This document shows, piece after piece, positions 10,168 to 23,759 of a DNA stretch of 57,705 nucleotides. The notes below the pieces were generated by a model. That model ran no database searches, was not told where the DNA came from, and was given only the letters and a program-made list of their open reading frames with translations. Position 1 is the stretch's first letter; each line of letters begins with the position of its first letter. Source of the DNA: a virus. Lineage: Duplodnaviria > Caudoviricetes. The stretch lies in IMG/VR virus record IMGVR_UViG_3300042320_001544, positions 1 through 57,705 of that record, one strand, 5' to 3'. The position numbers and the translations under genes are program-made.

Positions 10168-10189
10168 ACTTCGCCCCGGTGTTCGGTGT

Positions 10190-10801: not shown

Positions 10802-10820
10802 GGCGGCTCAGGTGCAGGGT

Positions 10821-11081
10821 TTAATATTGTTGGCGGCGCGCTCGCAGCGCAAAACTCGCAGGACCGTTCCCGCGCTGAGGGCCTTGCTCCACGTCTTGAG
10901 GTTCGTAGATTTCCTCCCGATCTTCTTCTCCCTCTTTGAGGGTTTTCCGCCGGCGCTTGGCCTTGGCAGGGTCGGCTGCAAGCTGCCCCCTGGCGGCGCG
11001 CTCAATGCCTTTCATCGCACGCTCACTTTGTAGCGAGGCGATGTGGTTGGTTAACTGGGCCAGTCCGGTTGACATATTCAA
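10821..11081 (-). CDS. Hypothetical protein
   Basis: 86-aa ORF tiling between neighbours on the coding strand. Confidence 0.55.
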   Translation of the reverse strand: MNMSTGLAQLTNHIASLQSERAMKGIERAARGQLAADPAKAKRRRKTLKEGEEDREEIYEPQDVEQGPQRGNGPASFALRARRQQY

Positions 11082-11095
11082 AAAAGTTTTATGAA

Positions 11096-11806
11096 TTAGC
11101 GTCTGTTGCCACGGCTTGCGGCCGCAAACGTGCTGGACCCCACTTGGCGGCCTCTTCGAAACGCCATGCGCCCCTTGGTGGTGGAAATGGTGCCGTCCTG
11201 CATCGGCGCGCGACCTGTCTGAAGGGTTTCCTGATTGGCCGCACCTCCCATCTGTTCCTGCTCTAGCTCGGCCTGCCTCCGCCGGCGGAACTCGGCGGCT
11301 CCGCGCTCGGTTTGGACAGTCAGAAGGCCCTTGGTTGGACCTGGATTTTTTCCGTTTTCCAATGCGAATTTTCTTTGTTCTAACGCTTCGAGTTCAGTTT
11401 CAGCCCGACTCAAATTTTCTTTTGCATCAGCCAGTCTTCGCGTCTTATCTTCAAACGCAGCATTGCCGGGCTTGTTAAAACGTTCCTTCCAGTCTGCCTC
11501 CCGCTTTTCGGCATCATCTGCCTCTTTCTCAGCCGCCTGCTCTCCGCCAAACCCTTTGATCTTCTTTCGCTCCGCCGGCGCGCCCCTGCCCCTTCCTCCC
11601 CCACCTCCACCGCCACCACCTCGGGTTGGCGGTGCGGGATTGTCCAAATCCATGCCCATGTTATAGTTCAACTGCGCCTGCTGCCGCATCATGTTGATCT
11701 TCGCTAGCCGCGCTGGCGGGATGCTTGGTCCCCGTTGCTTCGCCCACAACTCTCGATCTCTGGCTTTCTGAGCGCTGCTTTTCTGGGTGAAATCGAGGTT
11801 TTGCAT
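11096..11806 (-). CDS. Coiled-coil/Gly-rich hypothetical protein, possible internal virion protein
   Basis: ATG at 11806 (MQNLDF); poly-Gly tract and charged heptad region. Confidence 0.65.
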   Translation of the reverse strand: MQNLDFTQKSSAQKARDRELWAKQRGPSIPPARLAKINMMRQQAQLNYNMGMDLDNPAPPTRGGGGGGGGGRGRGAPAERKKIKGFGGEQAAEKEADDAEKREADWKERFNKPGNAAFEDKTRRLADAKENLSRAETELEALEQRKFALENGKNPGPTKGLLTVQTERGAAEFRRRRQAELEQEQMGGAANQETLQTGRAPMQDGTISTTKGRMAFRRGRQVGSSTFAAASRGNRR

Positions 11807-11867
11807 GGCGAGTTCTGGGTGGGTTGGAGTCAATTATTCCGCACCCCCCCCAAAATGCAAGGACCAG

Positions 11868-14201
11868 TTAACTGCCCGAGTCGTGCACCCCGTCCGGGTC
11901 CGATTGGAGCCATTCGGTCGTGACGGACGGCACAGGCGCATCTTCCATCATTTCGGTAGCGGCTCCAATGTGGTGCACGGCCATAGCCGTCATTTGCACA
12001 AACTCATCATGGTGCCCTGGGGCAGGCTCCGGCAGCGCCTTGCCGACCTCAATGAGAAAACTCGCCTGATCAAAGAACTCTTGCGCTCCCACTTCAAGCG
12101 ACCTCTCGCGGACTCGGGCTCGGAGGCTGGCGTAGAGTTGCGCAAGGGTCAGGTCATTGAGCACATAACCCGGCTTGCGAGGGATTACTCCTCGGCTCAG
12201 CGTCCGGCGCTCGACCACTTCCTCTCGCATCCACACCGGGCCGGCGTCCTCTTGTTGCAAGAGCGTCACCAATCCGCTGGCGTCGTCAATGGCAGGGATG
12301 ACCAAGCAGCCCCCATACCACCGACTCATCTGGGCAATGTAATTAGCGAGTCGATCCATGTCCGGCGACAGGTCGGCCATCAGCGCACAACTCAGAATAG
12401 GCACCTGCGCATTGCGCCACACGCCCACCGCCGGCCGGACTCCAGGCACCGCCGCCAAGAGGTAACTCTGGCCAGCCAATGGCTTTTCCCAGACGCGCAA
12501 CCACCCGTCCGCCGCGTCGGTCTTGAGGTATTGGCCCTTGGTGATCTTTCCGACTTCGAGGCGCTGGACCCATTGCACAGCACGCGCGTGGTAAAAATCG
12601 AGCGCCGCAGTGTCAAAATAGCGGGCATACTCGACGGTGGGAATTTCTACCGAGTCCAATGAGATCAATCCGGCGCTCGCAGCTTCCGCCGTAACGCGGA
12701 TCGCATCGCACGGGTGAGAACTCCAATCGTGCAACGGCTCGTTCGTCTTTTCGTCCCGATGATACGCTTTCAGAGCTTTGATGCCATCGGCGCACGTCTC
12801 CGGGTCAAACTCGAAGTGAGGAAACAGGGTCAGCGTGCGGTTGATCCCCGGCTCAATATCCGCCGGCCTCGGGCACACCACCACGTTTTCCAGCCCATTA
12901 GCCACGAGGTCCGAGTGAAACGTGAGAGATCCCGGCCCGGTGCTGGCTGCATCGTGAGGCAGCAAATGCTTGGCGTAGGTGTAGCCCTTGCCGTGCATCC
13001 GCTCGACCCGTTCCCGAGTCGTGAGAATCAGCTTCATGTCCACGTCGATCCATCGGAGCCGCCCCCGAGCAATTTGGAAATACCAGCAAACAAGGTTCTG
13101 AGGTGCACCCAAGTCCCAGCTTGTGTACACAGGCAAGCGCGGGTCATACAATCCCGCCTGCATCCGTCCCTCAGCAAGCGCCACGGCCACGGCGTCCGCA
13201 TAAATGGCTCCCTCTACCGGCGCTTCCCAGCATTCGGATAACACCGTGGGATACTCTCGCTTCACCAGCAACCCAAGCCGGCGCTCGGTGGCGTCATACC
13301 ACAGCCTTTGCCCCACGGTGAACGAGAAATGCCGACCCAGCGCCTCGCTGATCGTCTTTTCCATTTCGTCCAGATAGGCCGCATTGCGCGGTTTCATGGA
13401 AGCCAGACTTCCGGGCGTCGTGTAACGCTTTTCGACCCACCACGGGAAAAAGCGGATAAACCAATCCGCCGGCGTTTTGTCGGCGTCTGCCTTGCTGAGC
13501 GCCATCTCGATGAAGGTCCACACATCCCCACCCTCTCCGCCCTTCCAAGTGGTTTCAATCACTCTGATATTCCCCTCGGCGGCCTCCATCCCCCCCGTGA
13601 GAATTTCCGTGGACCGCTTCGGCTCATCAAACTGGATGGTTCCCCACTCTGAAATCCACAAAAACGTCAGCGCATCACCTCGGCCCGATTTTTCAACTCG
13701 GAACCGGCTCCAAGTGTCGTCTTCTTCGCCATTTGTGGCCGCGTGCGCTGCCTCGGTGGGTAGCCTGACCGCAAACTCTTCACCAGTGAGCTTGTAATCC
13801 TCGACCGCCTCCCTCATCCCCGCCGGCAATCGATCCCAAGCCACACGGGCCATGTCGTTCATCTTTTTGGTGCCGTCGCCCTTGGTTTTGTCGATCAACG
13901 CGCACTTGGCTCCCGTCTGAAACAGGCAGAAATCCAGCCCGATGAGAAAGAGCAGCGTTGAAAACCCGATCTGCCTAGCTTTCGGAATGACGAGGTTTTT
14001 TAGCCCTAAAACGAACAAATCCCAAATAATGCGCCTTTGCTCAGGCTTCGGAACAAAGCGCACGGTCTTCTTGCCGGCCTTGTCAAAGATCCAGTAAATG
14101 TTGGCCAAACGCCACACCGGGTCAGCCATGGCTTCCAACGGCGGCCGGTCAAGCGCCGTGCGCTCAAGCCATTCCACGTCTGGCACCGGGTCTGGGATCA
14201 T
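11868..14201 (-). CDS. terL: Terminase large subunit with an extra C-terminal degenerate nuclease-like domain
   Basis: Walker A PKARQIGFST, Walker B-like LWISEWG, motif C IETT, REYP, nuclease SWDLG...PHDA...HDWSSHPCDA. Confidence 0.93.
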   Translation of the reverse strand: MIPDPVPDVEWLERTALDRPPLEAMADPVWRLANIYWIFDKAGKKTVRFVPKPEQRRIIWDLFVLGLKNLVIPKARQIGFSTLLFLIGLDFCLFQTGAKCALIDKTKGDGTKKMNDMARVAWDRLPAGMREAVEDYKLTGEEFAVRLPTEAAHAATNGEEDDTWSRFRVEKSGRGDALTFLWISEWGTIQFDEPKRSTEILTGGMEAAEGNIRVIETTWKGGEGGDVWTFIEMALSKADADKTPADWFIRFFPWWVEKRYTTPGSLASMKPRNAAYLDEMEKTISEALGRHFSFTVGQRLWYDATERRLGLLVKREYPTVLSECWEAPVEGAIYADAVAVALAEGRMQAGLYDPRLPVYTSWDLGAPQNLVCWYFQIARGRLRWIDVDMKLILTTRERVERMHGKGYTYAKHLLPHDAASTGPGSLTFHSDLVANGLENVVVCPRPADIEPGINRTLTLFPHFEFDPETCADGIKALKAYHRDEKTNEPLHDWSSHPCDAIRVTAEAASAGLISLDSVEIPTVEYARYFDTAALDFYHARAVQWVQRLEVGKITKGQYLKTDAADGWLRVWEKPLAGQSYLLAAVPGVRPAVGVWRNAQVPILSCALMADLSPDMDRLANYIAQMSRWYGGCLVIPAIDDASGLVTLLQQEDAGPVWMREEVVERRTLSRGVIPRKPGYVLNDLTLAQLYASLRARVRERSLEVGAQEFFDQASFLIEVGKALPEPAPGHHDEFVQMTAMAVHHIGAATEMMEDAPVPSVTTEWLQSDPDGVHDSGS

Positions 14202-14425
14202 GGTTTAACCTTCACCTCTGCGTCCATGTCCATGACCTCGATGTTTAAAAACGCGGCTCGATACCACGGCATTTCGATGCCGCGCGTGTGCCGAATCCAA
14301 TCCGATTTTGCCGCGCCCTCAAGGTAAATCGACGGAACGGTTAACAATGCGATGAACATCACAAAAGCAGCCATGACGCCGCCGGTAATGAGCATCAATT
14401 CCTTAATGATTATCAATCCCTTCAT
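14198..14425 (-). CDS. Small membrane protein
   Basis: 75 aa with one hydrophobic helix; ATGA overlap with terL. Confidence 0.65.
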   Translation of the reverse strand: MKGLIIIKELMLITGGVMAAFVMFIALLTVPSIYLEGAAKSDWIRHTRGIEMPWYRAAFLNIEVMDMDAEVKVKP

Positions 14426-14472
14426 TCTATTTTATGGGTTGGGGGTTTATTCAAAAAGTCGGTTTCCCAGGC

Positions 14473-15105
14473 TCAATACGCCCATTTCGCGTCGCCTAAA
14501 ATTTCAGTGGAATCACCCCACCATTGATCCCACTGCTCGTTGGTCGCGACCTCCCAGTTCGGGATCGCGGCCACGGCGTCTTTGCCAGTCAATGACAACG
14601 GCATCCACTTGATGCGATTGTTCGGATACACTCCAATTTGCCCATTGGAAAGGCGCAGAACATTGCCTTCCTTATGCTCTTGGAGCAATTCTGAGTCGCC
14701 CACATCGACCAGCCCCTGCGCCTGCCCCTCGGGGCAAAAATCGATGGTGAACCAGTAGTGCCCGGTCATTGGCGGCTGCCCTCGCCCCATGTTGATTAAC
14801 ACCGGCACGTCGGACAATTGGTCCTTGCGCCACATTTCAATCGAGCCGCTCAGGCACTCCCACATCTGCACCCGATGCAACGGGAGGGGCGCGTGGTTGT
14901 CCTCGGGAACACTCCAATACACACAGTGCGGAGGGATTTTGTCAAAACACGCCGCGACCCGCTCGACCCATGCCTGGAAACACAGCGGTCGGTTGCGCAT
15001 GGCCCTCACCGACACTAACCACGCAGGTTCCCATTCGGTTTCTGATCCCCCAAAGGCGTCGCAACGGACAAATATTTTTGATTTTGGTAGATTGATGTTT
15101 CTCAT
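14473..15105 (-). CDS. Conserved-type phage hypothetical protein
   Basis: 210 aa; YWFTID...EHK..N.L.L.NGQ...YPNNR pattern that I recall from aquatic phage proteins of unknown function. Confidence 0.7.
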   Translation of the reverse strand: MRNINLPKSKIFVRCDAFGGSETEWEPAWLVSVRAMRNRPLCFQAWVERVAACFDKIPPHCVYWSVPEDNHAPLPLHRVQMWECLSGSIEMWRKDQLSDVPVLINMGRGQPPMTGHYWFTIDFCPEGQAQGLVDVGDSELLQEHKEGNVLRLSNGQIGVYPNNRIKWMPLSLTGKDAVAAIPNWEVATNEQWDQWWGDSTEILGDAKWAY

Positions 15106-15121
15106 AAAGATAAAGGACCGA

Positions 15122-15793
15122 TCACGCGCGGCCTAGGCGGATGCTGGCCCACATGGCCGCGATGTCGCCCAACGTCTGGGGCCCCAGCTCCACTTCCTGG
15201 CGTTCAAAGTTCAGCCATTTGCCCAGCAATTGCCAGCGATCCAGCAGCGCCGTCATTTTGTATTTCGGGCCAAACATGGTCTGCGATGTCTCGGAGCAGA
15301 GCAACAGAGCCCGCCGTTCGGTGGCCGTCAGGTTGGCCTCAGTGCCTTCGGTCTGCGCCTTCTCCACCGCACGCGCCACGGCCGTGATCGGGATGTCCAT
15401 GGTGTCCAGTAACGCCAGCACAGCGTCTGTTTTCTTGATCACGCTCCGCTCCTGCACTTTGGCAGTAACCGTGCCGCGTAGAAATTCGACGCGGACCTTA
15501 ACCGTTTTTAACAGCCGACTCGTGGCAGCCGCCACCGATTGCACATTCTTTCCCGCGCCAAAAATCTCAGCGTACGCTTTGACCGGACCCTGATCTTCAA
15601 GCGCCACGGCTCGAGCAAACGACTCGTGCTTGCCATTCACCAACGCCACCGATCCCGGCGGTGGTGCCGTCTTGGTCTGGTTGGCTGGCCGCACAGGCTT
15701 CCCCTTCACGGCCTTCACGGGTTTCACCGGCTTCCCCTTGGGTTTAGCCTTGGCCGTCTTTTGTTTGGTTTTGATGGATCCCTTTTTCATCAT
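15122..15793 (-). CDS. terS: Probable terminase small subunit
   Basis: KHESFARAVA...KAYAEIFG...AAATSRLLK..KVRVEFLR HTH-plus-helix pattern typical of TerS; upstream of terL; Lys-rich N-terminus; start uncertain (15793 or 15808). Confidence 0.65.
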   Translation of the reverse strand: MMKKGSIKTKQKTAKAKPKGKPVKPVKAVKGKPVRPANQTKTAPPPGSVALVNGKHESFARAVALEDQGPVKAYAEIFGAGKNVQSVAAATSRLLKTVKVRVEFLRGTVTAKVQERSVIKKTDAVLALLDTMDIPITAVARAVEKAQTEGTEANLTATERRALLLCSETSQTMFGPKYKMTALLDRWQLLGKWLNFERQEVELGPQTLGDIAAMWASIRLGRA

Positions 15794-15823
15794 GCGACTC
15801 CGCCCCATGTTGGTTGGAGTCAA

Positions 15824-16180
15824 TTATTCGCCAGCGCGGGGGCTTTTGCAAGCCTGCCCTTCTTTGGCGGCCCGTTCCTCAATCATGTCCCGGTGCCGAT
15901 CCACATAATCGATCACCGGTGCCCATTCTTTGCTCTTTCGCGACCACGCTTGCTCCATCACCCACAGCAGATAGGTCGCCGGCACCCGCTCCATGGTTTT
16001 CAGCCGGTGCAATTTCCCAACCGGAAAAAAACTCTGATGATGGAGCACCCCCCGAGTCACCCGGCTGTAATGCGCTCGGCCTGCATCGCGCGCTTCCTGC
16101 AACGGATCCGCTGGCGCAGTGTTCCAAAAATGGTGCTTTCGCCGGTCTTCGTGATCAAAAATCTCAACACCGTGATTCAT
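15824..16180 (-). CDS. DUF3820/ExoX C-terminal-like small domain protein
   Basis: FPVGK....TMERVPATYLLWV resembles the PFGK..G..I..VP..YL.W motif. Confidence 0.55.
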   Translation of the reverse strand: MNHGVEIFDHEDRRKHHFWNTAPADPLQEARDAGRAHYSRVTRGVLHHQSFFPVGKLHRLKTMERVPATYLLWVMEQAWSRKSKEWAPVIDYVDRHRDMIEERAAKEGQACKSPRAGE

Positions 16181-16240
16181 GGTCCCATTTTACCCCAATG
16201 TAGGTTTACGCGCACCGGCGCGTGATATTTAGTCGATTTG

Positions 16241-16516
16241 TTAATGATCCGTACTGTTCGCCTCAAAGAGACGCGGCGGGTTTGGCGATAGTTCCACCAG
16301 TCGGATTAGCTCGTTCTGGAGGCGGTATCGTTCCGCGAGTTGGCGGGCTGCAATGATGCGGTAGATGTCGCGCTGATCCATTTCGGAATGCTCCCCGAAG
16401 TGTTGCCAGTTAGCCCACATGGGATCGTTGCGCAGCGCCCATTGCTCGACAGCGGCAATGTCCGCAGTGAGATTTTCATTGTTTTGACTGATTTGAGGTG
16501 GTGTCGGTAGTTGCAT
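16241..16516 (-). CDS. Hypothetical protein (cassette 1 gene)
   Basis: 91 aa between attC-like sites; ends EANSTDH across the R' core. Confidence 0.7.
   Translation of the reverse strand: MQLPTPPQISQNNENLTADIAAVEQWALRNDPMWANWQHFGEHSEMDQRDIYRIIAARQLAERYRLQNELIRLVELSPNPPRLFEANSTDH
16244..16262 (+). mobile_element. attC-like right half-site (L'-spacer-R')
   Basis: atgatcc-gtact-gttcgcc, similar to the right arm of the attC at 16922-16940; no left arm found. Confidence 0.55.
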
Positions 16517-16520
16517 AAAA

Positions 16521-16623
16521 GGCGAACAAGGTTGGTGCTGGCAACCCCTGCCAGCGGGTTAGTCGATACTGTTATCGTTGCTCCTGCGGCGCTGGCTGGG
16601 TTGCCAGACCACCGACGTTCGCC
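16521..16623 (+). mobile_element. attC-like recombination site 1
   Basis: R'' ggcgaac, 5 nt, L'' tggtGctg ... L' cagacca, 5 nt, R' gttcgcc; long imperfect inverted repeat with an extrahelical G. Confidence 0.8.
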
Positions 16624-16898
16624 CAGTCGTTCCAGTCTTTGATTGCACTCATCATTGCGGCGTCGCTTTGACTGTCCGTCCAACCGTAGGGATGATTGTC
16701 GGCAGCCCCACCGTGCCCAAACGGGCAGATTTTTCGATAGGCGTCGCCAATGAGTTGTGAATCCTGAATTGGTCTCGCCCCGCAAAACGGACACGCCAGA
16801 AGGGCAAACAAATCGGATGCAGGCCGACCATCTGGGGCTGGCTGTCTTATGCCGGATTCTGGCGCTCCGGCGGGCGCGGTTTCAAGTGCGGTGTCCAT
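16572..16898 (-). CDS. Lar-like (restriction alleviation family) zinc-ribbon protein (cassette 2 gene)
   Basis: LLACPFCG...ICPFGH...AIKDWN. Confidence 0.6.
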   Translation of the reverse strand: MDTALETAPAGAPESGIRQPAPDGRPASDLFALLACPFCGARPIQDSQLIGDAYRKICPFGHGGAADNHPYGWTDSQSDAAMMSAIKDWNDWANVGGLATQPAPQEQR

Positions 16899-16940
16899 AG
16901 TGGTTATGCCCCAGAGGTCGGCTGATCCTTTGCGTTAGGG
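16803..16940 (+). mobile_element. attC-like recombination site 2
   Basis: R'' ggcaaac, aaatc, L'' ggatGcag, gccgacc ... ggtcgg, L' ctgatcc, tttgc, R' gttaggg. Confidence 0.82.
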
Positions 16941-17458
16941 CACTTCTCCAGTATCACGAGTTTGTTCCATTTCGTGATGCCACAGACTCGCCATCCCGCC
17001 TTTTTGTAGCACGCGCCGGGGTTCGTGCTGCGGATGCCCGTTGGCTTGACGTAAGTGTAAAGGCGTTCTCCCGGCCACCGCTTCCACGCCAACTCCTCAG
17101 CGTCCAGGATGAGCAGGCTTGAGAGTGTGATTCCCTCGTTGCGGAAGATCGCGTTATTGATTCCTTGCTGGCCGGATGCGTCCTTGAACTTGCGCCAACA
17201 CCAGATCGCGTCTCCGGCCTCCGTGATAAGCACCATCTTTTCCCCCGGTCCCACGAACAGTTTTGGCTTTCTCCCGTCCTTGTAGTGATAACGCGAATAG
17301 TGCCGATCATAAATCTCCCTCGCTCCGTCGTCTCCATCACGGCACTCGTGCCAGTGGCGTCCCAACTGCCTGCGACCAACGCCGTGCCCTAACAATGCGC
17401 TGATGCCAAGCGCCGGAAACGCTTGGTCAGATTGCAGGGCTGGAGACGGCGCTGGCAT
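16904..17458 (-). CDS. Mom-like GNAT-fold DNA modification protein (cassette 3 gene)
   Basis: DRHYSR...FRNE..LSS.LI..A...AW..WP.ERLYTYV....I.S.NPGACYKKAGW...G.TK; GxxYxxAGW is characteristic of Mom-related GNATs. Confidence 0.6.
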   Translation of the reverse strand: MPAPSPALQSDQAFPALGISALLGHGVGRRQLGRHWHECRDGDDGAREIYDRHYSRYHYKDGRKPKLFVGPGEKMVLITEAGDAIWCWRKFKDASGQQGINNAIFRNEGITLSSLLILDAEELAWKRWPGERLYTYVKPTGIRSTNPGACYKKAGWRVCGITKWNKLVILEKCPNAKDQPTSGA

Positions 17459-17475
17459 AGCTTCAATCGTTGGTG
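17387..17475 (+). mobile_element. attC-like recombination site 3
   Basis: R'' ccctaac, aatgc, L'' gctGatgc, caAgcgccg ... cggcgctg, L' gcatagc, ttcaatc, R' gttggtg; two extrahelical bases. Confidence 0.82.
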
Positions 17476-17477
17476 TG

Positions 17478-18458
17478 TTAAGCCGCCTCCCCCTTCATCT
17501 TTTGCCAATCCCTCAGTCGTTCCTCCGCCGTGCGGGTATCGGTGGAGTCAGGTGGAGGTGCAGCAGGGGTGGCCGTGCGTTTGGGTTTTGGCGGATCGGT
17601 GCGCCAAATTTGGCGTGCGCGCTCGGTGTACGCGCTGAGTTGGTCCAGAAAGACACTGCGCTTGGCGCTGATTCGGGTTTCCTCCGGGAACCGAGCTTGA
17701 TTCGCTGGCCGGCTGCACCATTCAAAAAAATGGCCCCACTGGTGCCATTGAGCATTGTCACAGCCATCAAGGGTGCCGTGGGCTTGCAACAGCGCGTGCC
17801 GATCATCACAGCTCCAATGTTGCACCTTCCCCCAGCTTGCCGGCCTCAGTGCATCGATGCGTTTCATCAGCGCCTCCAGTTGTTGCGTGCGCGGCGGCTC
17901 GTTGTCGGGCTCAGCGATGCCGGGCACCTGATCGGTGTATTCGGTCTTGGGAGCAGTGGCAGGCGGCACCGGCGGCGCGGTTACAGGGCGTTGTTGGCGT
18001 TGGGCTCGCGTGCGCTGGGCCGCCTTGCTGCGAGGGTTTCCGGGTCTTCCGCGCCGCGCGCGCCCTTTGCTGAGCCGATTGTAGCGCAGGTAATCAGGGA
18101 AGAGCAGCGTGCGCTCTTTGGCATCGCGCACCACCCAACCCACTTCCTCCATCGCGGCTTGGATGCCTGGCATGTCGGCTACCATGTCGAGGTAATTGTC
18201 CCCACCGATCCCGGAAAGGATGGCGTCGAGGCTATCCTCGGCCACCTCGTCGGCGTGCTCGTTCACCACGGCAAACACGCGACTCAACGCGCTGCACGTC
18301 ACATGCCGCATCAAGTTCTGAAAACTGACCGCCCCTGAAAAACCGGGCAGGGTTTCAAAACCGCGGCTCAGCAGTTCCGCCATGCGGTGCACCTTCGGCT
18401 TTGTCCAAAAGCGCTCGGTGAAAATGATCCAATTCCCAATGCCCGTCTTTTTGCTCAT
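17478..18458 (-). CDS. Putative replication initiator/replisome organiser
   Basis: N-terminal WI....FW.KPKV..MA.LL and L.FPDY..YN pattern, basic/Pro-rich linker and C-terminal domain, as in phage replication initiators. Confidence 0.55.
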   Translation of the reverse strand: MSKKTGIGNWIIFTERFWTKPKVHRMAELLSRGFETLPGFSGAVSFQNLMRHVTCSALSRVFAVVNEHADEVAEDSLDAILSGIGGDNYLDMVADMPGIQAAMEEVGWVVRDAKERTLLFPDYLRYNRLSKGRARRGRPGNPRSKAAQRTRAQRQQRPVTAPPVPPATAPKTEYTDQVPGIAEPDNEPPRTQQLEALMKRIDALRPASWGKVQHWSCDDRHALLQAHGTLDGCDNAQWHQWGHFFEWCSRPANQARFPEETRISAKRSVFLDQLSAYTERARQIWRTDPPKPKRTATPAAPPPDSTDTRTAEERLRDWQKMKGEAA

Positions 18459-18461
18459 TGC

Positions 18462-18785
18462 TTAATGGGTTTGCAGTTCTCGGGTTTCAAAGAGGTCGGC
18501 GAGATCGTCCTCGCGACCCATGATCAGGCGCGCATAGCGGCTTGTGTAATTGTTGTTGAGCCGGAAACCGTCCTCACTGTCGATGGTCACCCCAAAATTA
18601 TATCTCAGGACTTCCCACAGCATCTTGATGGAGCAGTGCGCTTTCCCGCTGTCCTTCCACCGGCGTGCCATCCGCACCAGCTCGTCGTACACATACGGGT
18701 GCTGATAATGATAGCGGAGGAACGCATCACTGGCCGAATTAGCGGTGGGCAGTTCAAGTTGTTCGTCGTTTGGCTGCGTTCTCAT
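18462..18785 (-). CDS. Conserved phage protein of unknown function
   Basis: F..YH..HP.VY..L...A...SIK.LWE.LR...FRLNNNYTSRYARL.M....L..LFETR. Confidence 0.75.
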   Translation of the reverse strand: MRTQPNDEQLELPTANSASDAFLRYHYQHPYVYDELVRMARRWKDSGKAHCSIKMLWEVLRYNFGVTIDSEDGFRLNNNYTSRYARLIMGREDDLADLFETRELQTH

Positions 18786-19207
18786 AATTTGGTGCAGGCA
18801 GAGTCCAAGGTGCCAGCGAGGTAGGCGTCAATTGTTCGTCTCGCGTGATCAAAACCGTGGCAGACCGAAACGGCGTAGCCAGCCGCCGCGAGTCGATCCT
18901 GCCAGCCCGTTTGCTCAGGGCTCACTCGCCCGCCCTTGGCGCGCTTCATCTCGACGAACAGCCCCGGCCTACCGCCGGCGCACCATGCCAAAAACAAATC
19001 AGGAACGCCGGCGCTCGTGCCCTCGGCCTTCAGCCGTCTGGCCGTTAACAGGTGACGGGCTCCACCATTCGGAATGGCAAACAAATTGCCCCAAGCCGGC
19101 ACCGTGCGCGCCCTCGATCTCGCCCAGATCATGAGCGCCACCTGCTCGGTGTGCTCAGTCGGCCCTTGGCCGGGCTTGATGGGTTTGCGGAAGGGTGTTT
19201 TTTTCAT
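18782..19207 (-). CDS. VRR-NUC domain nuclease
   Basis: EH.EQ...FAIPNGG.R...LKAEG..AGVPDLFL...LFVEMKR.KGGRVSPEQ..W. Confidence 0.9.
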   Translation of the reverse strand: MKKTPFRKPIKPGQGPTEHTEQVALMIWARSRARTVPAWGNLFAIPNGGARHLLTARRLKAEGTSAGVPDLFLAWCAGGRPGLFVEMKRAKGGRVSPEQTGWQDRLAAAGYAVSVCHGFDHARRTIDAYLAGTLDSACTKL

Positions 19208-19515
19208 CAGGCTTGGCGTTTGATGTTCTCCATTTCAATGGCAGCCACGAGGCAGCGCCGATCTCCATAAACCGACCTCCACGCCACAGGGTCCGGCGGT
19301 TCCTTTTGAATTGTGAGACTGGCCACCCTTGCCATGAGGCGATTCTTTTTCCCGTAGCCCAGCGATAACACCACCGCCCGGCCGGGAATCACGGTGTTTT
19401 GATTCCATCTCGGGCCAAAAGGGCGATATTCAGTAGTTTTAGAGCCATCTTCAAAGGCAAGGAAATGCTCCTTTTTCAGCGGCACGAACAAAGCGGTGCG
19501 CGGTGTTTTTTTCAT
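19207..19515 (-). CDS. ASCH domain protein
   Basis: LKKEHF.A..DGSKTTEYR...RW; start 19515 overlaps the upstream stop (ATGA). Confidence 0.8.
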   Translation of the reverse strand: MKKTPRTALFVPLKKEHFLAFEDGSKTTEYRPFGPRWNQNTVIPGRAVVLSLGYGKKNRLMARVASLTIQKEPPDPVAWRSVYGDRRCLVAAIEMENIKRQA

Positions 19516-19850
19516 GCGCACCAATCGGTAAAAGTGAACATCGGCGCGCCGGTGAGGATCTCGCCGGCTTGCTCCAGGGACTCGTGAGCTTTCACGGTTG
19601 GAACCAGCAGCATGGCATCCACCCAAAGCGGAAAAACCAACTGCTTCGAAATCACCTGCATCACCGCTTCCGCCTCGGCGATGATTTCAGCCTGCCCAGA
19701 TTCACCCAGGGCATCGAACGGCACCGGATTCCGGCTGCCGTCGGGCATCGTCTCATGGATGGCCTTGGCCACCTGATATTTCAGTTCGCCATTGGTGTGC
19801 TGGCTGCCGCCCTTGGTGGCGGGTTTCGGGTCCGTCGTTTTAATAGCCAT
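19512..19850 (-). CDS. Hypothetical protein
   Basis: 112-aa ORF, translationally coupled to the ASCH gene. Confidence 0.65.
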   Translation of the reverse strand: MAIKTTDPKPATKGGSQHTNGELKYQVAKAIHETMPDGSRNPVPFDALGESGQAEIIAEAEAVMQVISKQLVFPLWVDAMLLVPTVKAHESLEQAGEILTGAPMFTFTDWCA

Positions 19851-19906
19851 GTGTAAAGGCGTGCCGGGATAACCCGCCCGGCGTCGGGGTGTTGGGTTGG
19901 GGTCAA

Positions 19907-20806
19907 TTAACGGCCCGAGGCGCTGGCATTCACCGTGGACGGGGCACCGGTGCCAAAGCCCACGGGCAGCGGCTTGGTTTCCACATCGATGATCCTCGGC
20001 GCGTCAGGCTTGGTCAGGGAGGGGTCGCCGCGCACGATCAGCGCCTCGGTAAATTCCTCTGCCACCCTGAAATCATTGAGCCGTTGCTCAACGTCTGCCA
20101 CCGCCTCCCTTACGATCTGAGTCAGCGCATGGCAAAGCAGTGTAAACACCACCTTGCCGCCCGTAACCTTGGTGCGCAGCGTAATCTCCAACCGGTGATC
20201 AGGCTGGCCTTGGAAGATCGGACACATGATTGAGAGCGAACGCGGAACCACTGTCGAACCTTCGGCGGCGTCGGTTTCATAGCACAGGGAGCCGGTGCCG
20301 TTAGCCTGATTGACCACACTCTTGAACCGCGTCACCTCGATTTGCTGAAATGCCTCGACCACCGATACCAAGGCGGCCGCCTCAACAAACAGGTAGGCGT
20401 GTTGGTCAATGAAGTCCAAGAACTCGGCTTGCAACTGAGGTTTGCCCAGCACACCCGCCAAGGGTGCAAACTCGTCGGAATACTCCAAGACCAGTGTGGC
20501 CACATGGCTGTTGGTGTTGACGGGTTCTTTTGGTCCCGAGGGCGTGTGATCCAGCACCGCCGTGATGGTGTTGGCCTTGCTGTTGATGTAAACAGCCAGC
20601 GTGCTGCCGTTGCCTTTCACATAATAGCGCAGGTAGGCTTCCAGTGCGGTGATGTCAGCCACCTTCACCGACTGCCGGAGCGTCTTTGGCAAAGTCTCTG
20701 GAATAAACACCTTCGCGGCATACCCAGGAGGCAAAGCCAACGCTAGCGGGTTTTGACCGTATTCGGACAAGATGAGTTCGTGATTTTCGTCAAAATGGGG
20801 GATCAT
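19907..20806 (-). CDS. DUF2303 (YfdQ-like) family protein
   Basis: ITAVLDH...H.ATL.L..S.EF...Q.EF.DFI...F.S.V.Q.NG...PIFQG...LR pattern. Confidence 0.8.
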   Translation of the reverse strand: MIPHFDENHELILSEYGQNPLALALPPGYAAKVFIPETLPKTLRQSVKVADITALEAYLRYYVKGNGSTLAVYINSKANTITAVLDHTPSGPKEPVNTNSHVATLVLEYSDEFAPLAGVLGKPQLQAEFLDFIDQHAYLFVEAAALVSVVEAFQQIEVTRFKSVVNQANGTGSLCYETDAAEGSTVVPRSLSIMCPIFQGQPDHRLEITLRTKVTGGKVVFTLLCHALTQIVREAVADVEQRLNDFRVAEEFTEALIVRGDPSLTKPDAPRIIDVETKPLPVGFGTGAPSTVNASASGR

Positions 20807-20845
20807 AGAATTGAGTTTAAAATTGAAGATTGACGGATTGAATGA

Positions 20846-21220
20846 TTAGAGTTCAGCCGGGAACGGGGGTTTTCCCTGCGCCGCGTCCAGCACTTCGTCC
20901 ATCTGGTATTGGTCCGGGTCGTGCTGGCCCAGCCTGCCGTTTTCATCCGCGAACAGTTTGCTCGCAGGCCGTGGGTTCTTTGGCTTCTTGGCGGAGACAT
21001 CCACCTTGATGGCCACCGCCTTGCCTTGCCCGGCTACGGAAATGGTCACTTTCAGTTCGCCTTTGCCGCCGTTTTCACGCACCGCCTGCACTACGGCTTT
21101 CAGTTCGTCGCTTGCTTCGGCAAGCACATCGCCATTCTGGTACAGTTTCAAAGCCTCCACAAAGGGACGCTCCGCGTGGGCAATGTTGAGCCCCATTGGG
21201 GGAATTGTTTTTTTAGCCAT
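20846..21220 (-). CDS. YfdP-like partner of DUF2303
   Basis: F...L....NG....EASDEL..VV.AV.E.G.KG.L..TI...LFADENG.L...DP.Q; usual upstream neighbour of DUF2303. Confidence 0.7.
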   Translation of the reverse strand: MAKKTIPPMGLNIAHAERPFVEALKLYQNGDVLAEASDELKAVVQAVRENGGKGELKVTISVAGQGKAVAIKVDVSAKKPKNPRPASKLFADENGRLGQHDPDQYQMDEVLDAAQGKPPFPAEL

Positions 21221-21292
21221 GGTCTTGGATTTTTGGTTTTGGGGTTGAGGCTCGATGCCAGCCGGATTTCGCCGGCATCGAGCCAAGGGGTG

Positions 21293-21634
21293 TTACTCAG
21301 TCACAGGCGCGACCTCAGCTACGGTGGGCAGCATTGGTTCATTGGCCGGCATGCCCTCGCTGGCGCTTGCCTCCTCTGGCGGTGTATCAGCCGGATCTGG
21401 CTGAGGCTCCGCAACCAGCACTGGCTTCACGGCCTCAATGGCGGCAAACTCGCTCAAAAGAGCGGAGATTTGCTCCGTTTCGTCGGCGCTTGGGGTCTGG
21501 GTGCGTGCTGCTGCCAGTTCGGCATTCAGCGTGGTCACCTGCGCTTGCAAGGCTTCAATTTGCTCCTTTTCGGCCGGGTCGGCTTTGAGGAGTTCCAGCC
21601 CGAGCTGGAGGTATTTGATCAGTGTTCTGAACAT
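21293..21634 (-). CDS. Acidic coiled-coil hypothetical protein
   Basis: 113-aa ORF on the coding strand. Confidence 0.65.
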   Translation of the reverse strand: MFRTLIKYLQLGLELLKADPAEKEQIEALQAQVTTLNAELAAARTQTPSADETEQISALLSEFAAIEAVKPVLVAEPQPDPADTPPEEASASEGMPANEPMLPTVAEVAPVTE

Positions 21635-22303: not shown

Positions 22304-22483
22304 TTATTCAGTCGGGTAAACCGGCCAATCCTTCACCGTGAGCCAGATCATCCAGAAGGTGAAGAAGAACACGACCACCGCCGCTATCAGGCAGTGGAGC
22401 ACATGCCTCCATCCCCGGATCTGCTCCTGCCGTTCCAAGAGGTGATAAAATTCCATCAGTTGCTGTTCCAGTGTCTTTTTCAT
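22304..22483 (-). CDS. Small membrane protein
   Basis: MKKTLEQQ...CLIAAVVVFFFTFWMIWL single TM helix; overlapped by the methyltransferase tail. Confidence 0.55.
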   Translation of the reverse strand: MKKTLEQQLMEFYHLLERQEQIRGWRHVLHCLIAAVVVFFFTFWMIWLTVKDWPVYPTE

Positions 22484-23759
22484 AAGTTGGGGGGTTGGGG
22501 GTGGTGGGGTGGTCGCGGTTGAGGTCGGCGATGCGTTGGCCGATCCAGCGCATGACGGGGACGGCCATGCTGTTGCCGAGTGCTTTGTAGCGGGGGCCAT
22601 CGGGGGCGGTCTTCCCGCGCCAAGGGACAAGGGTGTGATCGTCAGGAAACCCTTGGAGCCGCTCGCACTCCCGAGGGGTGAGGCGCCGGACTTGCATTTG
22701 CTGGCGGATGTAGCTCGTTTGCTTCATGCCCGGTTCAGCGGCGAGCGCACCGACAACTTGCATCTCCCTCAGTTCGTCACGGGTGTTTTGGGCGAAGGCT
22801 ACGGCGGGAGGATTCCCGCTTGATCCCCCGCTGCCAATTTTGATTGGCACCGACGATCCATCTGTCTGGATGTTGTCGCAGTAGCTTTCGTTTGAGTAGA
22901 ACGAGATCGGCACAAGTGGCGTGCCGCGGCCCGTGCCATCCTCGCTTGCGTCAAAGCCTTCGCCCCGCAGTGTGTGCGCGACGAGATCCGTCGCGTCTTT
23001 GTAGTCACGCATTTTGAGCGTGGAGGCGGAGTCGTCGCACTCGTATTCACCGAAGGCGACCATCCTTGCGGTGATGACTTCGGGGATCACGCAGTCTTGT
23101 CCTCGGGTGTCTCCGGTGCGCTCAAACCCTCGGCGACTTGCTGTAAGGCAAGGTGCAAGGTCGTAGGCAGATCCTTGCCTCTTTTCTCGGCTCGGCGCAG
23201 GATCCCCGCGCAGGCTCTCGCGCTCAAATAAAACTGCGGCGGCACGACGCCAGTCTCCAAGGTGTCCGACAACGAACACACGGCGGCGGCGCTGGGCCAC
23301 TCCGAAGTATTGAGCGTCAAGAACGCGGTAGGCGGTCCCATACCCGAGTTCCCCCAGCCCTCCAAGGAAGGCTCCAAAAGCCCCTGTTTGGTCTGACAGA
23401 ACGCCGGGGACGTTCTCCCAGACCAGCCACTCGGGGAGATAGCGTGCAAGGAGAGCCAGAAACGTGAGGGTGAGGTTCCCTCGAGGGTCAGCAAGCCCTT
23501 TGCGAAGTCCGGCAACGGAGAAGGCTTGGCAGGGGGTGCCGCCGACGATGAGGTGAGGTCGAAGAGTGTCTGGCCATTCATGGTATTGTGTCATGTCGCC
23601 TAGGTTAGGAACCTCCGGCCAGTGATGGGCGAGCACGGCGGAAGGGAATTTTTCAATCTCGGCAAAACCACACGGCACCCACCCGAGCGGCTCCCACGCG
23701 ACGGAAGCGGCCTCAATGCCGGAGCAGATGGAGAGGTAGGTGAAGGGGGTGAGGTTCAT
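22308..23759 (-). CDS. dcm: DNA (cytosine-5)-methyltransferase
   Basis: Motif I CSGIEA, IV GTPCQAFS, VI WENVPG, VIII AQRRRR, IX RRLTPRECERLQGFPD, X LGNSMAVPV. Confidence 0.95.
   Translation of the reverse strand: MNLTPFTYLSICSGIEAASVAWEPLGWVPCGFAEIEKFPSAVLAHHWPEVPNLGDMTQYHEWPDTLRPHLIVGGTPCQAFSVAGLRKGLADPRGNLTLTFLALLARYLPEWLVWENVPGVLSDQTGAFGAFLGGLGELGYGTAYRVLDAQYFGVAQRRRRVFVVGHLGDWRRAAAVLFERESLRGDPAPSREKRQGSAYDLAPCLTASRRGFERTGDTRGQDCVIPEVITARMVAFGEYECDDSASTLKMRDYKDATDLVAHTLRGEGFDASEDGTGRGTPLVPISFYSNESYCDNIQTDGSSVPIKIGSGGSSGNPPAVAFAQNTRDELREMQVVGALAAEPGMKQTSYIRQQMQVRRLTPRECERLQGFPDDHTLVPWRGKTAPDGPRYKALGNSMAVPVMRWIGQRIADLNRDHPTTPNPPTYEKDTGTATDGILSPLGTAGADPGMEACAPLPDSGGGRVLLHLLDDLAHGEGLAGLPD
23087..23581 (-). 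CDS. Nested alternative-frame ORF resembling the M.EcoHK31I beta polypeptide
   Basis: WGNSGM...TLNTSEWPS.A.VCSLSD.LET...FYLS..AC.GILRRAEKRGK.LP..L..AL, wholly inside dcm. Confidence 0.6.
   Translation of the reverse strand: MNGQTLFDLTSSSAAPPAKPSPLPDFAKGLLTLEGTSPSRFWLSLHAISPSGWSGRTSPAFCQTKQGLLEPSLEGWGNSGMGPPTAFLTLNTSEWPSAAAVCSLSDTLETGVVPPQFYLSARACAGILRRAEKRGKDLPTTLHLALQQVAEGLSAPETPEDKTA

What the first reader, a model, noticed from the sequence alone, without database searches (positions are those of the whole stretch)
16241..17458. Cassette genes run antisense to attC and use the attC sites as coding sequence in a fixed frame
Seen: the attC top strand is the plus strand, but all three genes are on the minus strand, in line with phage transcription. 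Two start inside their own attC (16898, 17458) and read through R'' as SDLFAL and SALLGH; the third starts 5 nt past R''. All three leave across the R' crossover with the AAC read as Asn (CPNAKDQ, WANVGG, EANSTDH) and stop within or just past the neighbouring site. Inference: attC supplies start and stop signals, so shuffling keeps genes in frame, swaps their C-terminal tails, and lets a phage promoter rather than Pc drive them. This is the reverse of normal bacterial cassette design.
Basis: partly seen in the sequence, partly recalled or inferred. Interest (0 to 1): 0.85.

Follow-up and report, generated by a model that had tools for sequence, protein, structure and literature searches.

The report
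Reversed integron cassettes in a phage
A lake-water phage carries three mobile integron-type gene cassettes whose genes run backwards relative to their recombination hairpins and are read straight through those hairpins, so a gene's protein tail changes when the cassette moves next to a different neighbour.

Summary
Window 16257-17469 is a three-cassette integron-type array without an integrase (a CALIN). It sits in a complete 57.7-kb phage genome.

- **Cassette ends are real crossovers.** All four junctions are G|TT sites: 16256|7, 16617|8, 16934|5 and 17469|70.
- **Cassettes move.** Cassette 1 occurs at 100% identity in another viral contig with unrelated flanks. A metagenome contig joins 16255 to 16934, skipping exactly cassettes 1+2 (678 nt). 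Contig break-points pile up at the four GTTs.
- **The hairpins are attC sites.** The hairpin family of 16521-16623 also lies in a Verrucomicrobiales array beside a true intI.
- **Orientation.** Crossover side, extra-helical bases and orientation to intI all make the plus strand the attC top strand. All three genes are on the minus strand, so the cassettes are reversed.
- **Fixed frame.** Each ORF crosses R' with AAC read as Asn and stops in the neighbour. In a wider sample 16 of 20 such ORFs do so (by sequence cluster 15 of 19, p=6e-5).
- **Swapped ends.** Close homologues carry different tails directly after that Asn. Unrelated proteins share tails and one leader that are coded by attC.

Not shown: which start codons are used, which promoter drives the genes, and that a host IntI acts on the sites. 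Phage CALINs are already published; the reversed, in-frame read-through design is a new variant.

The parts
16256..16258 (+). J0: left crossover (G|TT) between the phage backbone and cassette 1. It is not part of a hairpin.
   Evidence: Identity with L014 starts at 16255. The X17 contig joins 16255 to 16934. Loose ends lie at 16255/16256 and 16259/16260. There is no significant fold in 16150-16265.
16257..16617 (.). Cassette 1 (361 nt): gene 1 plus attC b.
   Evidence: 100% identical over 366 nt (16255-16620) to L014, whose flanks are unrelated. Also present at the start of the same contig (L015).
16241..16516 (-). Gene 1 ORF, 91 aa, no known family. Its last 5 codons and its stop lie outside the cassette.
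   Evidence: No Pfam, PHROG or NCBIfam match. The only match in the 5.8-billion-protein search is the window's own protein cluster (100% identical); L014 carries the same gene with the different tail EAN+T.
16521..16623 (+). attC b (top strand). R'' GGCGAAC, R' GTTCGCC, 31-bp main stem. Member of a family conserved in 24 contexts.
   Evidence: CM score 123.6 bits. A family member lies in an intI-linked array.
16618..16934 (.). Cassette 2 (317 nt): gene 2 plus attC c.
   Evidence: Cassettes 1+2 together (678 nt) are skipped exactly by one contig of run X17. Loose ends at 16617, 16620 and 16934.
16572..16898 (-). Gene 2 ORF, 108 aa. Weak Lar-like zinc-ribbon match. Residues 1-28 are coded by attC c; the tail from Asn93 on is coded by attC b.
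   Evidence: PF14354 E=7.7e-4, below its cut-off. P0122, P0123 and P0124.
16802..16941 (+). attC c (top strand). R'' GGGCAAAC, R' GTTAGGGC. Second attC family.
   Evidence: Homologous hairpins in 4 viral contigs, with compensatory stem changes against L059. CM 6.3 bits, E=1.2, so weak by the b-type model.
16935..17469 (.). Cassette 3 (535 nt): gene 3 plus attC d.
   Evidence: Loose ends at 16934 and 17471 in three runs. Cassette 3 pieces reach depth 35-200 against a backbone of about 10 in X16. The cassette's first bases complete a GTTAGGGC that is the exact complement of its own R'' GCCCTAAC (sequence reading).
16904..17458 (-). Gene 3 ORF, 184 aa, GNAT-like fold, phrog_24928. The conserved core is residues ~22-174. 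The tail after Asn175 is coded by attC c.
17386..17475 (+). attC d (top strand). R'' GCCCTAAC, R' GTTGGTG (GTT 17469-17471). The weakest of the three hairpins.
   Evidence: CM 9.4 bits, E=0.19, aligning R' to this GTT. Left and right arms resemble the L059 site. Contigs diverge after 17471.
17478..18458 (-). Flanking phage gene (326 aa, replication-initiation-like). Its stop codon lies 6 nt (17472-17477) from the array's right-hand GTT (17469-17471).
   Evidence: phrog_2509 E=3e-7.
15824..16180 (-). Flanking phage gene (118 aa, unknown function), downstream of the array in the direction of transcription.
   Evidence: No family match.

Best explanation
Window 16257-17469 is an integron-type array of three cassettes without an integrase (a CALIN). 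It lies in the early or replication gene region of a complete 57.7-kb phage with direct terminal repeats, from lake water. The phage probably infects Verrucomicrobiales.

Cassette design. Read on the plus strand, each cassette is TT...[gene on the minus strand]...R''-L''-loop-L'-R'(G). The attC therefore sits at the 5' end of its gene instead of the usual 3' end. All three genes point the same way as the phage genes around them.

Coding across junctions. The cassettes end before the ORFs do. Every ORF runs over the G|TT crossover, with the complementary AAC read as Asn, and borrows its last codons and its stop from whatever lies next.
- Genes 3 and 2 stop in the loop of the next attC.
- Gene 3 stops 5 nt before the loop ATG that opens the longest gene 2 ORF.
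- Moving a cassette therefore keeps the ORF open and changes only its C-terminal tail.

Shown: the anatomy, the cassette boundaries, cassette presence and absence in nature, the strand, the frame bias, and the swapping of tails and leader.

Inferred:
1. A host integron integrase acting in trans inserted the array at a GTT in double-stranded phage DNA (attG-like) and moves the cassettes.
2. Transcription is phage read-through.
3. The fixed frame is kept because a ribosome that reads into the hairpin as far as its loop melts the attC stem in the mRNA and so couples translation of the next gene.

The confidence given (0.8) is for the identity and anatomy of the array. I put the coupling step alone at about 0.4.
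For: Phage genome.
- The record has direct terminal repeats and is rated 100% complete.
- It has portal, capsid and C5-methylase genes.

Mobility and boundaries.
- L014 is 100% identical to window 16255-16620 and unrelated outside it.
- One X17 contig joins 16255 to 16934, skipping 678 nt = 361+317, with 3 ambiguous letters at the joint.
- Loose ends lie at 16255/6, 16259/60, 16617, 16620, 16934 and 17471 in four runs.
- A related backbone in X16 (24 differences over 15500-16259) continues after 16259 into different DNA.

attC identity.
- Site b folds with z = -7.
- The b family occurs in 24 distinct contexts.
- One b-type copy (121 bits) lies in L031 at 7070-7190(+), beside intI at 3067-4194(-), with further attC hits at 5368, 6262 and 7738 on the same strand.
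- 3 of 4 MAGs that carry the family have TIGR02249 above its cut-off; 0 of 14 control genomes do.
- The c family occurs in 4 viral contigs, with compensatory stem changes.

Strand.
- The variable junction is always on the GTT side. Conservation falls to about 0.1 bit beyond GTT+6, but continues 10-16 nt to the left of R''.
- The extra unpaired bases lie on the AAC arm of the plus strand in b, c and d. That is the top-strand arrangement described in PMC5027507.
- The b-type copy in L031 has the canonical orientation relative to intI.

Genes and frame.
- A minus-strand ORF starts -4 to +34 nt from R'' in 22 of the 23 b-type contexts that can be assessed, and at +76 in one (L049). These ORFs fall into 20 sequence clusters.
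- The ORF entering from the right is in the AAC=Asn frame in 17 of 22 contexts.
- Requiring at least 40 open codons, 16 of 20 ORFs are in that frame. Counted by sequence cluster it is 15 of 19, binomial p=6e-5.
- Three of the five exceptions have R' = GTTA, which gives a TAA stop at the crossover itself.
- All 3 c-type contexts are in frame 0. Their stop lies 5 nt before the loop ATG (window) or overlaps it as ATGA (L059, L060).

Tails and leader.

Published background for coupling. attC hairpins in mRNA hinder ribosomes, and short ORFs translated across attI or attC relieve this (passages of review PMC8876359).
Against: - The phage has no integrase: 0 hits for PF00589 or TIGR02249. None of 10 other array-bearing viral contigs has an IntI above the cut-off. 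The recombinase is therefore inferred.
- Site d is a weak hairpin. It scores only 9.4 bits with the b-type model, and c scores 6.3 bits.
- The left boundary J0 has no attC or attI-like structure and no similarity to the attI region of L031.
- The R boxes do not fit RYYYAAC/GTTRRRY beyond the triplet.
- No curated attC model such as IntegronFinder's was available. Rfam gave nothing.
- The frame statistics come from two attC families, both found by similarity to this window, so they may be family traits.
- In b-type sites the frame-0 stop lies 40-80 nt before the next start. An ATGA relay is present in only 6 of 23, so coupling there is indirect at best.
- There is no expression or proteome evidence.
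- Start codons are unverified.
Confidence: 0.8

Rival explanations
1. The array is real, but coding inside attC is a passive by-product. On this view true starts lie at or just after R'', for example the in-frame TTG made by the conserved AAC-AA of sites c and d. The attC-coded N-terminal 'leaders' are gene-caller extensions. The C-terminal tails are neutral junk, tolerated because a stop follows soon. The frame bias comes from shared descent of this cassette family, not from selection for coupling.
For: - Most of the 24 gene 3 relatives aligned (of 1108 found) are about 156-160 aa and start 2-8 residues before LLGHG. The N-terminal extensions of the close, cassette-borne relatives all differ.
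- A TTG start at R'' would give gene 2 a short N-terminus directly before its CPFCG motif (sequence reading; that this is typical of Lar proteins is recalled, not tested).
- Tail sequences are conserved only where the hairpin DNA is conserved.
- The ATGA relay is inconsistent in b-type sites: 6 of 23.
Against: - 16 of 20 incoming ORFs in 19 unrelated sequence clusters share one frame. Descent of the attC does not explain the phase of unrelated neighbouring genes.
- In all 3 c-type contexts the incoming stop abuts or overlaps the loop ATG.
- Three unrelated proteins keep the same 28-aa leader with its ATG.
Confidence: 0.35
2. The units are shuffled by homologous recombination between conserved intergenic stem-loops, as proposed for promoter-stem-loop (PeSL) modules of T4-type phages (recalled from memory, not read here). 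On this view no integron integrase is involved, and the resemblance to attC is convergent or reflects occasional capture by integrons.
For: - No integrase in the phage or in 10 other array-bearing viral contigs.
- The b-type hairpin is about 80-100% conserved between contexts, enough to act as a substrate for homologous exchange.
- The element precedes each gene, as PeSL modules do.
Against: - Junctions lie exactly at GTT even between unlike partners: b with c, c with d, and J0, which has no hairpin.
- The 678-nt skip joins non-homologous flanks that share only 3 letters.
- The same family sits in an intI-linked array in canonical orientation.
- The extra-helical-base asymmetry is as in attC sites.
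- No sigma-70-like promoter excess: 3 sites found against 2.0 expected.
Confidence: 0.07
3. Assembly artefact: a bacterial integron fragment was joined to a phage contig in error.
For: Repeated attC sites do break and mis-join assemblies. The L014/L015 contig begins inside an attC copy.
Against: - 15 listed runs hold half or more of the words of 15900-17800. 9 of them may be the source sample.
- Independent Logan contigs bridge J0 and J1 (X15 record 13) and J2 and J3 (X14 record 6).
- A related backbone uses the same J0.
Confidence: 0.02

Closest known systems
CALINs (clusters of attC sites lacking an integrase) in phage genomes: Qi et al. 2023, Front Microbiol, PMC9892861 (abstract and section 3.4 read)
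   Same: - attC arrays without intI in phage genomes, virulent phages included.
- Cargo tied to restriction evasion. They report DNA methyltransferases; here there is a weak Lar-like protein, and a C5 methylase reads into a b-type attC in L009.
- GTT motifs at the array boundaries.
   Different: [quoted passage not shown] They do not mention uniformly reversed cassettes, ORFs crossing the crossover in a fixed frame, or shared attC-coded tails.
- Their supplementary tables could not be seen.
- Here mobility is shown by natural variants, not by an IntI1 assay.
Canonical integron cassettes and attC sites (class 1 attC, Vibrio VCR): Nivina et al. 2016, PMC5027507 (passages read)
   Same: - Imperfect hairpin with AAC...GTT.
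- Unpaired central spacer.
- Extra-helical bases on the AAC arm of the top strand.
- Length within 57-141 nt.
- Crossover at G|TT.
- Long, well-paired stems and high similarity between family members, as in sedentary chromosomal integrons.
   Different: - The gene lies on the bottom strand, with attC at its 5' end.
- The R boxes do not follow RYYYAAC/GTTRRRY beyond the triplet.
- No adjacent intI, attI or Pc.
attG insertion of cassettes outside integrons: Loot et al., bioRxiv 10.1101/2022.09.11.507474 (passages read)
   Same: - A cassette joined to ordinary double-stranded DNA at a minimal GWT/GTT site. J0 and the right end of the array look like the two halves of such a target.
- They report precise excision from such sites.
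   Different: - Their work concerns bacterial chromosomes under laboratory IntI1 expression. Here the target is a phage genome in nature, and it holds three cassettes.
- The empty phage site was not found.
ORF-11, ORF-18 and short ORFs in attC that aid translation of the next cassette: Hanau-Bercot 2002 and Jacquier 2009, as summarised in review PMC8876359 (passages read)
   Same: - An ORF that spans the recombination crossover and takes its stop from the neighbouring cassette.
- Ribosome passage relieves an attC stem-loop, and termination-reinitiation feeds the next gene.
   Different: - Those are short peptides starting in attI or attC of sense arrays. Here full-length cargo proteins cross the junction, on the opposite strand, and gain 5-18 residue tails.
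Cassettes with their own promoter in chromosomal integrons, such as toxin-antitoxin cassettes (PMC13108822 and PMC8876359, passages read). That some of these are reversed is recalled, not read here.
   Same: Cassettes whose expression does not depend on Pc. The reversed b-type cassette also occurs in a bacterial array (L031).
   Different: No toxin-antitoxin content. No promoter was identified. An entire attC subfamily (23 of 23 contexts) is tied to reversed single small genes.

Membership tests
Integron attC site | Imperfect inverted repeat that folds as a single-strand hairpin, with terminal AAC...GTT boxes. | tested here: met
   - b: z=-7.0, 7-bp R box.
- c: z=-3.0.
- d: weak, z=-1.6 / -2.8.
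. The AAC and GTT columns are invariant in the b-family alignment (9 sequences).
Integron attC site | Extra-helical bases on the AAC arm of the top strand, an unpaired central spacer, and length 57-141 nt. | tested here: met
   - The plus-strand AAC arm carries the surplus unpaired bases in b, c and d.
- Spacers are 3-7 nt.
- Lengths are 103, 140 and 90 nt.
- The criterion is taken from PMC5027507.
Integron attC site | Full R-box consensus: R'' RYYYAAC and R' GTTRRRY. | tested here: not met
   R' is GTTCGCC, GTTAGGG and GTTGGTG. R'' is GGCGAAC, GGCAAAC and CCCTAAC. No canonical match lies at the crossovers. Only the triplets are kept.
Integron attC site | Recombination crossover between G and TT of R'. 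| tested here: met
   - The identity block with L014 ends at GTTC on both sides.
- The 678-nt skip runs from 16255 to 16934.
- Loose ends lie at all four GTTs.
- Conservation drops directly after GTT.
Integron attC site | Recognised and recombined by an integron integrase. | not testable with these tools
   Indirect only. A b-type copy lies in an array next to an intI that scores 395 bits against a 265-bit cut-off, in canonical orientation.
Integron attC site | Detected by a curated attC covariance model (IntegronFinder or HattCI). | not testable with these tools
   No such model is held here. Rfam gave no match. My own b-family model scores b at 123.6, d at 9.4 and c at 6.3 bits.
CALIN (attC cluster lacking an integrase) | At least two attC sites close together with no integron integrase nearby. 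| tested here: met
   Three sites lie within 1.0 kb. The whole 57.7-kb genome gives 0 hits for TIGR02249 or PF00589.
Complete integron | intI with attI and a Pc promoter next to the array. | tested here: not met
   There is no tyrosine recombinase in the genome. The flank of J0 is unlike the attI region of L031.
Canonical (sense) gene cassette | The ORF lies on the attC top strand, with attC at its 3' end. | tested here: not met
   All three ORFs lie on the bottom strand. The linked attC is 5' of gene 1 in both the window and L014.
Phage promoter-stem-loop (PeSL-type) shuffling modules | A conserved promoter plus stem-loop between ORFs, exchanged by homologous recombination. | tested here: not met
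   No promoter excess: 3 found against 2.0 expected. Junctions are precise at GTT between unlike sequences. The family definition is recalled, not read here.

The most novel reading that the evidence does not exclude
Some attC families have evolved as dual-use elements for reversed cassettes that circulate between Verrucomicrobial integrons and their phages. The same hairpin would be the recombination site, would code a shared N-terminal leader and a shared C-terminal tail, and would hold a stop-start junction in its loop. Any shuffle would then leave every ORF open and translationally coupled within a phage polycistronic message. Phages would be using the host's integron integrase as a plug-and-play system for small accessory genes, probably anti-defence genes. 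The shared peptides might themselves act as tags.
Probability: 0.35. Interest if true: 0.85.

Novelty: new variant of a known kind. Interest (0 to 1): 0.72.

Why it matters
**New design rule.** Integron cassettes are usually described as promoterless sense genes followed by their attC and read from Pc. Here a conserved attC subfamily is tied to genes on the other strand in all 23 contexts that could be assessed. The cassette boundary also lies inside the coding sequence, in one preferred phase. Recombination then acts like exon shuffling of protein ends, and the hairpin does three jobs: recombination, coding and possibly translation control.

**Natural evidence for cassette turnover in phages.** Variants with and without cassettes, at one locus of one phage lineage across lake metagenomes, suggest that phages take part in cassette traffic. 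This supports the route proposed by Qi et al. 2023.

**A tractable study system.**
- Cassette birth and orientation remain open questions in integron biology.
- The cargo hints at anti-restriction roles: a weak Lar-like zinc ribbon, a GNAT-fold protein, and a C5 methylase and an exonuclease in related arrays.

**Annotation.** Gene callers will report chimeric termini for such genes.

Tried and rejected
- **Rfam.** A scan of the whole window at gathering thresholds gave no match.
- **Phage GenBank collection.** Distant blastn of 15800-17700 gave no match.
- **Relatives of the 326-aa flanking gene in viral contigs.** None found. No empty-site relative could therefore be identified, and I did not search for one with a joined sequence.
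- **Gene 3 homologues in L001-L008.** They are not flanked by attC-like hairpins. The family is mostly ordinary phage cargo, and only a subset is cassette-borne.
- **Site (a) to the left of 16256.** It was tested as an attC or attI and rejected:
  - no significant fold;
  - no similarity to the L031 attI region or to other loci beyond the cassette itself;
  - a shared 9-mer with the loop of site b and a small GC hairpin remain unexplained.
- **Short-ORF relay from an ATG in the b-type loop.** Present in 6 of 23 contexts, with inconsistent ends. Rejected as a general feature.
- **Promoter and terminator scan of 14000-20000.** Not above the shuffled expectation.
- **Greedy ORF-strand survey of flanks in other loci.** Too noisy in this GC-rich DNA to say that arrays are always co-oriented with phage genes.
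- **In-window scan for AACAA...GTT hairpins.**
  - It recovered b and c, plus a few small hairpins at 30234, 19080 and 44207 that I regard as chance or terminators.
  - With speed filters on, the b-family model found no further copy elsewhere in the window.
- **RNA evidence.** No RNA holder is listed among the sequencing runs, so nothing can be said about expression.
- **Uncovered stretches.** Parts of the laid stretch without contig cover in single runs are not interpreted.
- **Window methylase against the L009 methylase.** The protein comparison failed on coordinates and was dropped.
- **Supplements.** The supplementary tables of Qi et al. 2023 could not be seen. They may list cassette orientations.
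Full report
**What the window is.** The window is a whole IMG/VR virus record of 57,705 bp with direct terminal repeats, rated 100% complete.
- It has a portal-like gene, a capsid gene and a C5 DNA methylase.
- The listed long ORFs with family matches are on the minus strand.
- It has no tyrosine recombinase at all: PF00589 gives 0 hits at E<=1, and TIGR02249 gives 0 hits.

**The observation.** On the plus strand three AAC...GTT hairpins lie at the gene junctions.
- Site b, 16521-16623: DNA-fold z = -7.0, and 0 of 200 shuffles fold as well. It gives the fourth-lowest folding energy of all 120-nt windows in the genome and is its longest single nested hairpin.
- Site c, 16802-16941: z = -3.0.
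- Site d, 17386-17475: weak, z = -1.6 and -2.8.
- The fourth 'site', left of 16256, is not a hairpin (z about 0).

**Are these attC sites?** An exact 19-mer from site b found 10 viral stretches, and 8 of them carry the whole hairpin. Gapped two-arm patterns added 4 genome contigs and 15 metagenome contigs. This gives 24 distinct contexts.
- The genome contigs are three Verrucomicrobial MAGs and one binned as Acidobacteriales.
- Three of those four MAGs encode a true integron integrase: TIGR02249 scores 395, 385.5 and 337.7 bits against a cut-off of 265. None of 14 control genomes passes the cut-off.
- In one MAG contig (L031), intI lies at 3067-4194(-). It is followed on the plus strand by attC hits at 5368, 6262, 7070 (b-type, 121 bits) and 7738. 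A further site near 6665-6752 is visible by eye.
- So the b family belongs to real integron arrays, in the canonical orientation relative to intI.
- Site c has its own family in 4 viral contigs (3 of them identical around the site), with the same architecture and compensatory stem changes against L059.
- Site d resembles the L059 site in both arms. My b-family model aligns its R' to the GTT at 17469-17471 (numbering corrected).

**Are they used?** Yes.
- L014 is 100% identical to window 16255-16620 (366 nt) and unrelated on both sides. A second copy of the attC lies at the start of the same contig, followed by yet another sequence.
- I laid Logan contigs from four lake-water metagenome runs on 15500-18200. 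In run X17, one contig joins 16255 directly to 16934. It skips 678 nt, exactly cassette 1 (361) plus cassette 2 (317), with 3 ambiguous letters at the joint.
- Contig loose ends lie at 16255/6, 16259/60, 16617, 16620, 16934 and 17471, that is, at the four GTTs.
- In X16, a 97%-similar backbone runs to 16259 and then continues into different DNA.
- Also in X16, pieces of cassette 3 reach depth 35-200 against about 10 for the backbone. Cassette 3 therefore also sits in other genomes.
- Other contigs bridge J0+J1 (X15 record 13) and J2+J3 (X14 record 6), which argues against a chimera.
- The cassettes are thus 16257-16617, 16618-16934 and 16935-17469.
- The first bases of cassette 3 complete a GTTAGGGC that is the perfect complement of its own R'' (GCCCTAAC at 17386). 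This is expected of a cassette that was once a circle (and sequence reading).

**Strand.** Three independent lines make the plus strand the top strand.
1. The variable junction is on the GTT side. Across the b family, information content falls from 2 bits at GTT to about 0.1 bit beyond position +6. It stays raised for 10-16 nt to the left of R''. Gene 1 remains linked to site b in both contexts where this can be seen.
2. The surplus unpaired bases lie on the AAC arm of the plus strand in b, c and d. Nivina et al. describe this for the top strand (PMC5027507).
3. The b-type copy in L031 points away from intI, as canonical attC sites do.

The genes are on the minus strand, so each cassette carries its attC at the 5' end of its gene. 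This is not peculiar to phages:
- In L031 the b-type cassette carries a reversed 102-aa gene. It ends ..ENV* across the preceding R', again with AAC read as Asn.
- Its neighbours there are ordinary sense cassettes. One of them has its TAA stop inside R''.

**Frame and borrowed ends.**
- Start side. In 22 of the 23 b-type contexts that can be assessed, a minus-strand ATG ORF begins -4 to +34 nt from R''; in one it begins at +76. These ORFs fall into 20 sequence clusters.
- Entry side, all contexts. The ORF entering from the right is longest-open in the frame that reads AAC as Asn in 17 of 22 contexts. Four of these reach a contig edge, and in two of those (L043, L044) a second frame is as open or nearly so, so the frame call is uncertain.
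- Entry side, stricter count. With at least 40 open codons, 16 of 20 ORFs are in that frame. By sequence cluster it is 15 of 19, binomial p = 6e-5 against one third.
- Exceptions. Three of the five have R' = GTTA, which makes a TAA stop at the crossover itself.
- Position of the stop. The frame-0 stop lies in the hairpin loop, 45-54 nt in, in 21 of 23 b-type sites.
- Shared tails. Unrelated proteins therefore share a tail of the form N-x-x-G-L-A-T-Q-P-A....
- c family. All 3 contexts are in frame 0 and share an NAK..PTSGA tail. The stop lies 5 nt before the loop ATG in the window, and overlaps it as ATGA in L059 and L060.

- Gene 3. Seven close relatives, the window included, share ..PN and then carry seven different tails.
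- Gene 2. A 96%-identical homologue matches up to ..DWAN and differs afterwards.
- Gene 1. It ends EAN+STDH here and EAN+T in L014.
- One homologous pair (L013 and L051) ends once at a crossover TAA and once with a read-through tail.
- Two unrelated proteins share the first 28 residues of gene 2, which are coded by the c-type attC.

**What is not shown.**
- Start codons. Most of the 24 gene 3 relatives aligned (of 1108 found) are about 156-160 aa and begin just before LLGHG. The conserved AAC-AA of sites c and d creates an in-frame TTG at that position. The loop ATGs may therefore not be the real starts.
- Promoter. The promoter scan is at background, so phage read-through transcription is inferred from co-orientation only.
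- Recombinase. It is inferred to be a host IntI acting in trans. Ten other array-bearing viral contigs also lack an IntI above the cut-off, although three hold short fragments resembling the IntI C-terminus.
- Left boundary. J0 looks like an insertion at a plain GTT in double-stranded DNA, as described for attG sites. No empty site was found.

**Mechanism proposed.**
- A host IntI inserts cassettes at a GTT 6 nt downstream of the stop of the replication-initiation-like gene.
- Later attC x attC or attC x GTT events add or remove cassettes.
- The phage transcribes the array as part of its own operon.
- A ribosome finishing one gene reads through the R'-L' arm into the loop, opens the attC stem in the mRNA, and frees or directly feeds the next start.
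- The last step rests on published work, read here as review passages: attC stem-loops impede ribosomes, and short ORFs translated across attI or attC relieve this. It would explain the fixed phase.

**Cargo.**
- Gene 3 has a GNAT acetyltransferase fold: model pLDDT 76.5, and every one of the best Foldseek matches listed is a GNAT fold at E about 1e-3, TM about 0.5.
- Gene 2 is a weak Lar-like zinc ribbon, below the Pfam cut-off.
- Gene 1 has no relatives beyond its own cluster.
- In related arrays a C5 methylase and a DEDD-type exonuclease (assigned by eye from motifs, not scanned) read into b-type sites.
- An anti-restriction role is plausible but untested.

**Comparison and verdict.** CALINs in phages are published (Qi et al. 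2023), so the presence of attC sites in a phage is not new. Three things are new relative to what I could read:
1. An attC subfamily bound to reversed cassettes.
2. The systematic in-phase crossing of the crossover, which yields exchangeable protein ends.
3. Direct population evidence of cassette gain or loss at one phage locus.

I rate the finding a new variant of a known kind, with interest 0.72.

Noticed in passing
window 1-9768(-) and 44487-57704(-): Two very long ORFs (3256 aa and 4405 aa) run off both ends of the record on the same strand. With the terminal repeats they may form one protein of more than 7,000 aa. The only Pfam hit in the part scanned is an InPase (inorganic pyrophosphatase) domain near residues 3062-3194.
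   Followed up: partly
window 16206-16225, and L014 (about 14-32 nt outside cassette 1): A small GC-rich hairpin of similar sequence (ACGCGC..GCGCGT type) lies just outside the left end of cassette 1, both in the window and in the unrelated L014 context. It could be chance, or part of a preferred target.
   Followed up: no
window 16229-16237 and 16559-16567: The 9-mer TTAGTCGAT occurs twice: in the loop of attC b and 19 nt (16238-16256) left of the J0 crossover; its 8-base core TAGTCGAT occurs only at these two places in the window. It may be a remnant of an older b-like site at J0.
   Followed up: partly
G011:C1:5857-5961, G012:C1:5310-5414, G013:C1:7271-7417 (viral contigs with c-type attC): Short open frames (88-105 aa) match only the C-terminal 38-52 residues of the integron integrase model (21-44 bits, below the cut-off). 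They may be intI remnants carried into phages together with arrays.
   Followed up: no
L031 (Verrucomicrobiales MAG contig) 4200-8100: - A mixed integron array with sense cassettes (a PEP-CTERM protein, by eye from its C-terminal motif; an exonuclease, by eye, whose TAA stop lies inside R'') and a reversed cassette.
- One attC near 6665-6752 was missed by my model.
- The array is cut off by two ORFs that look like transposases by eye (not scanned).
   Followed up: partly
L009 about 10010-11600: A homologue of the window's C5 cytosine methylase (window 22308-23759, 78% nucleotide identity) reads in frame 0 into a b-type attC and gains the NDQGLATQ.. tail. In the window the methylase is not next to an attC.
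   Followed up: partly
L060 / L058 / L061, right of the c-type attC: A tandem repeat of about 12 nt (coding ..MPDRMPDR..) directly follows the R' of the c-type site.
   Followed up: no
window 14473-15105(-): A 210-aa gene (phrog_3704, annotated 'ferredoxin'/moron) is the only other stretch of the 9.5 kb searched (window 11800-21300) shared with the L014 contig, at 71% nucleotide identity. The two phages are therefore only distantly related apart from the identical cassette.
   Followed up: no
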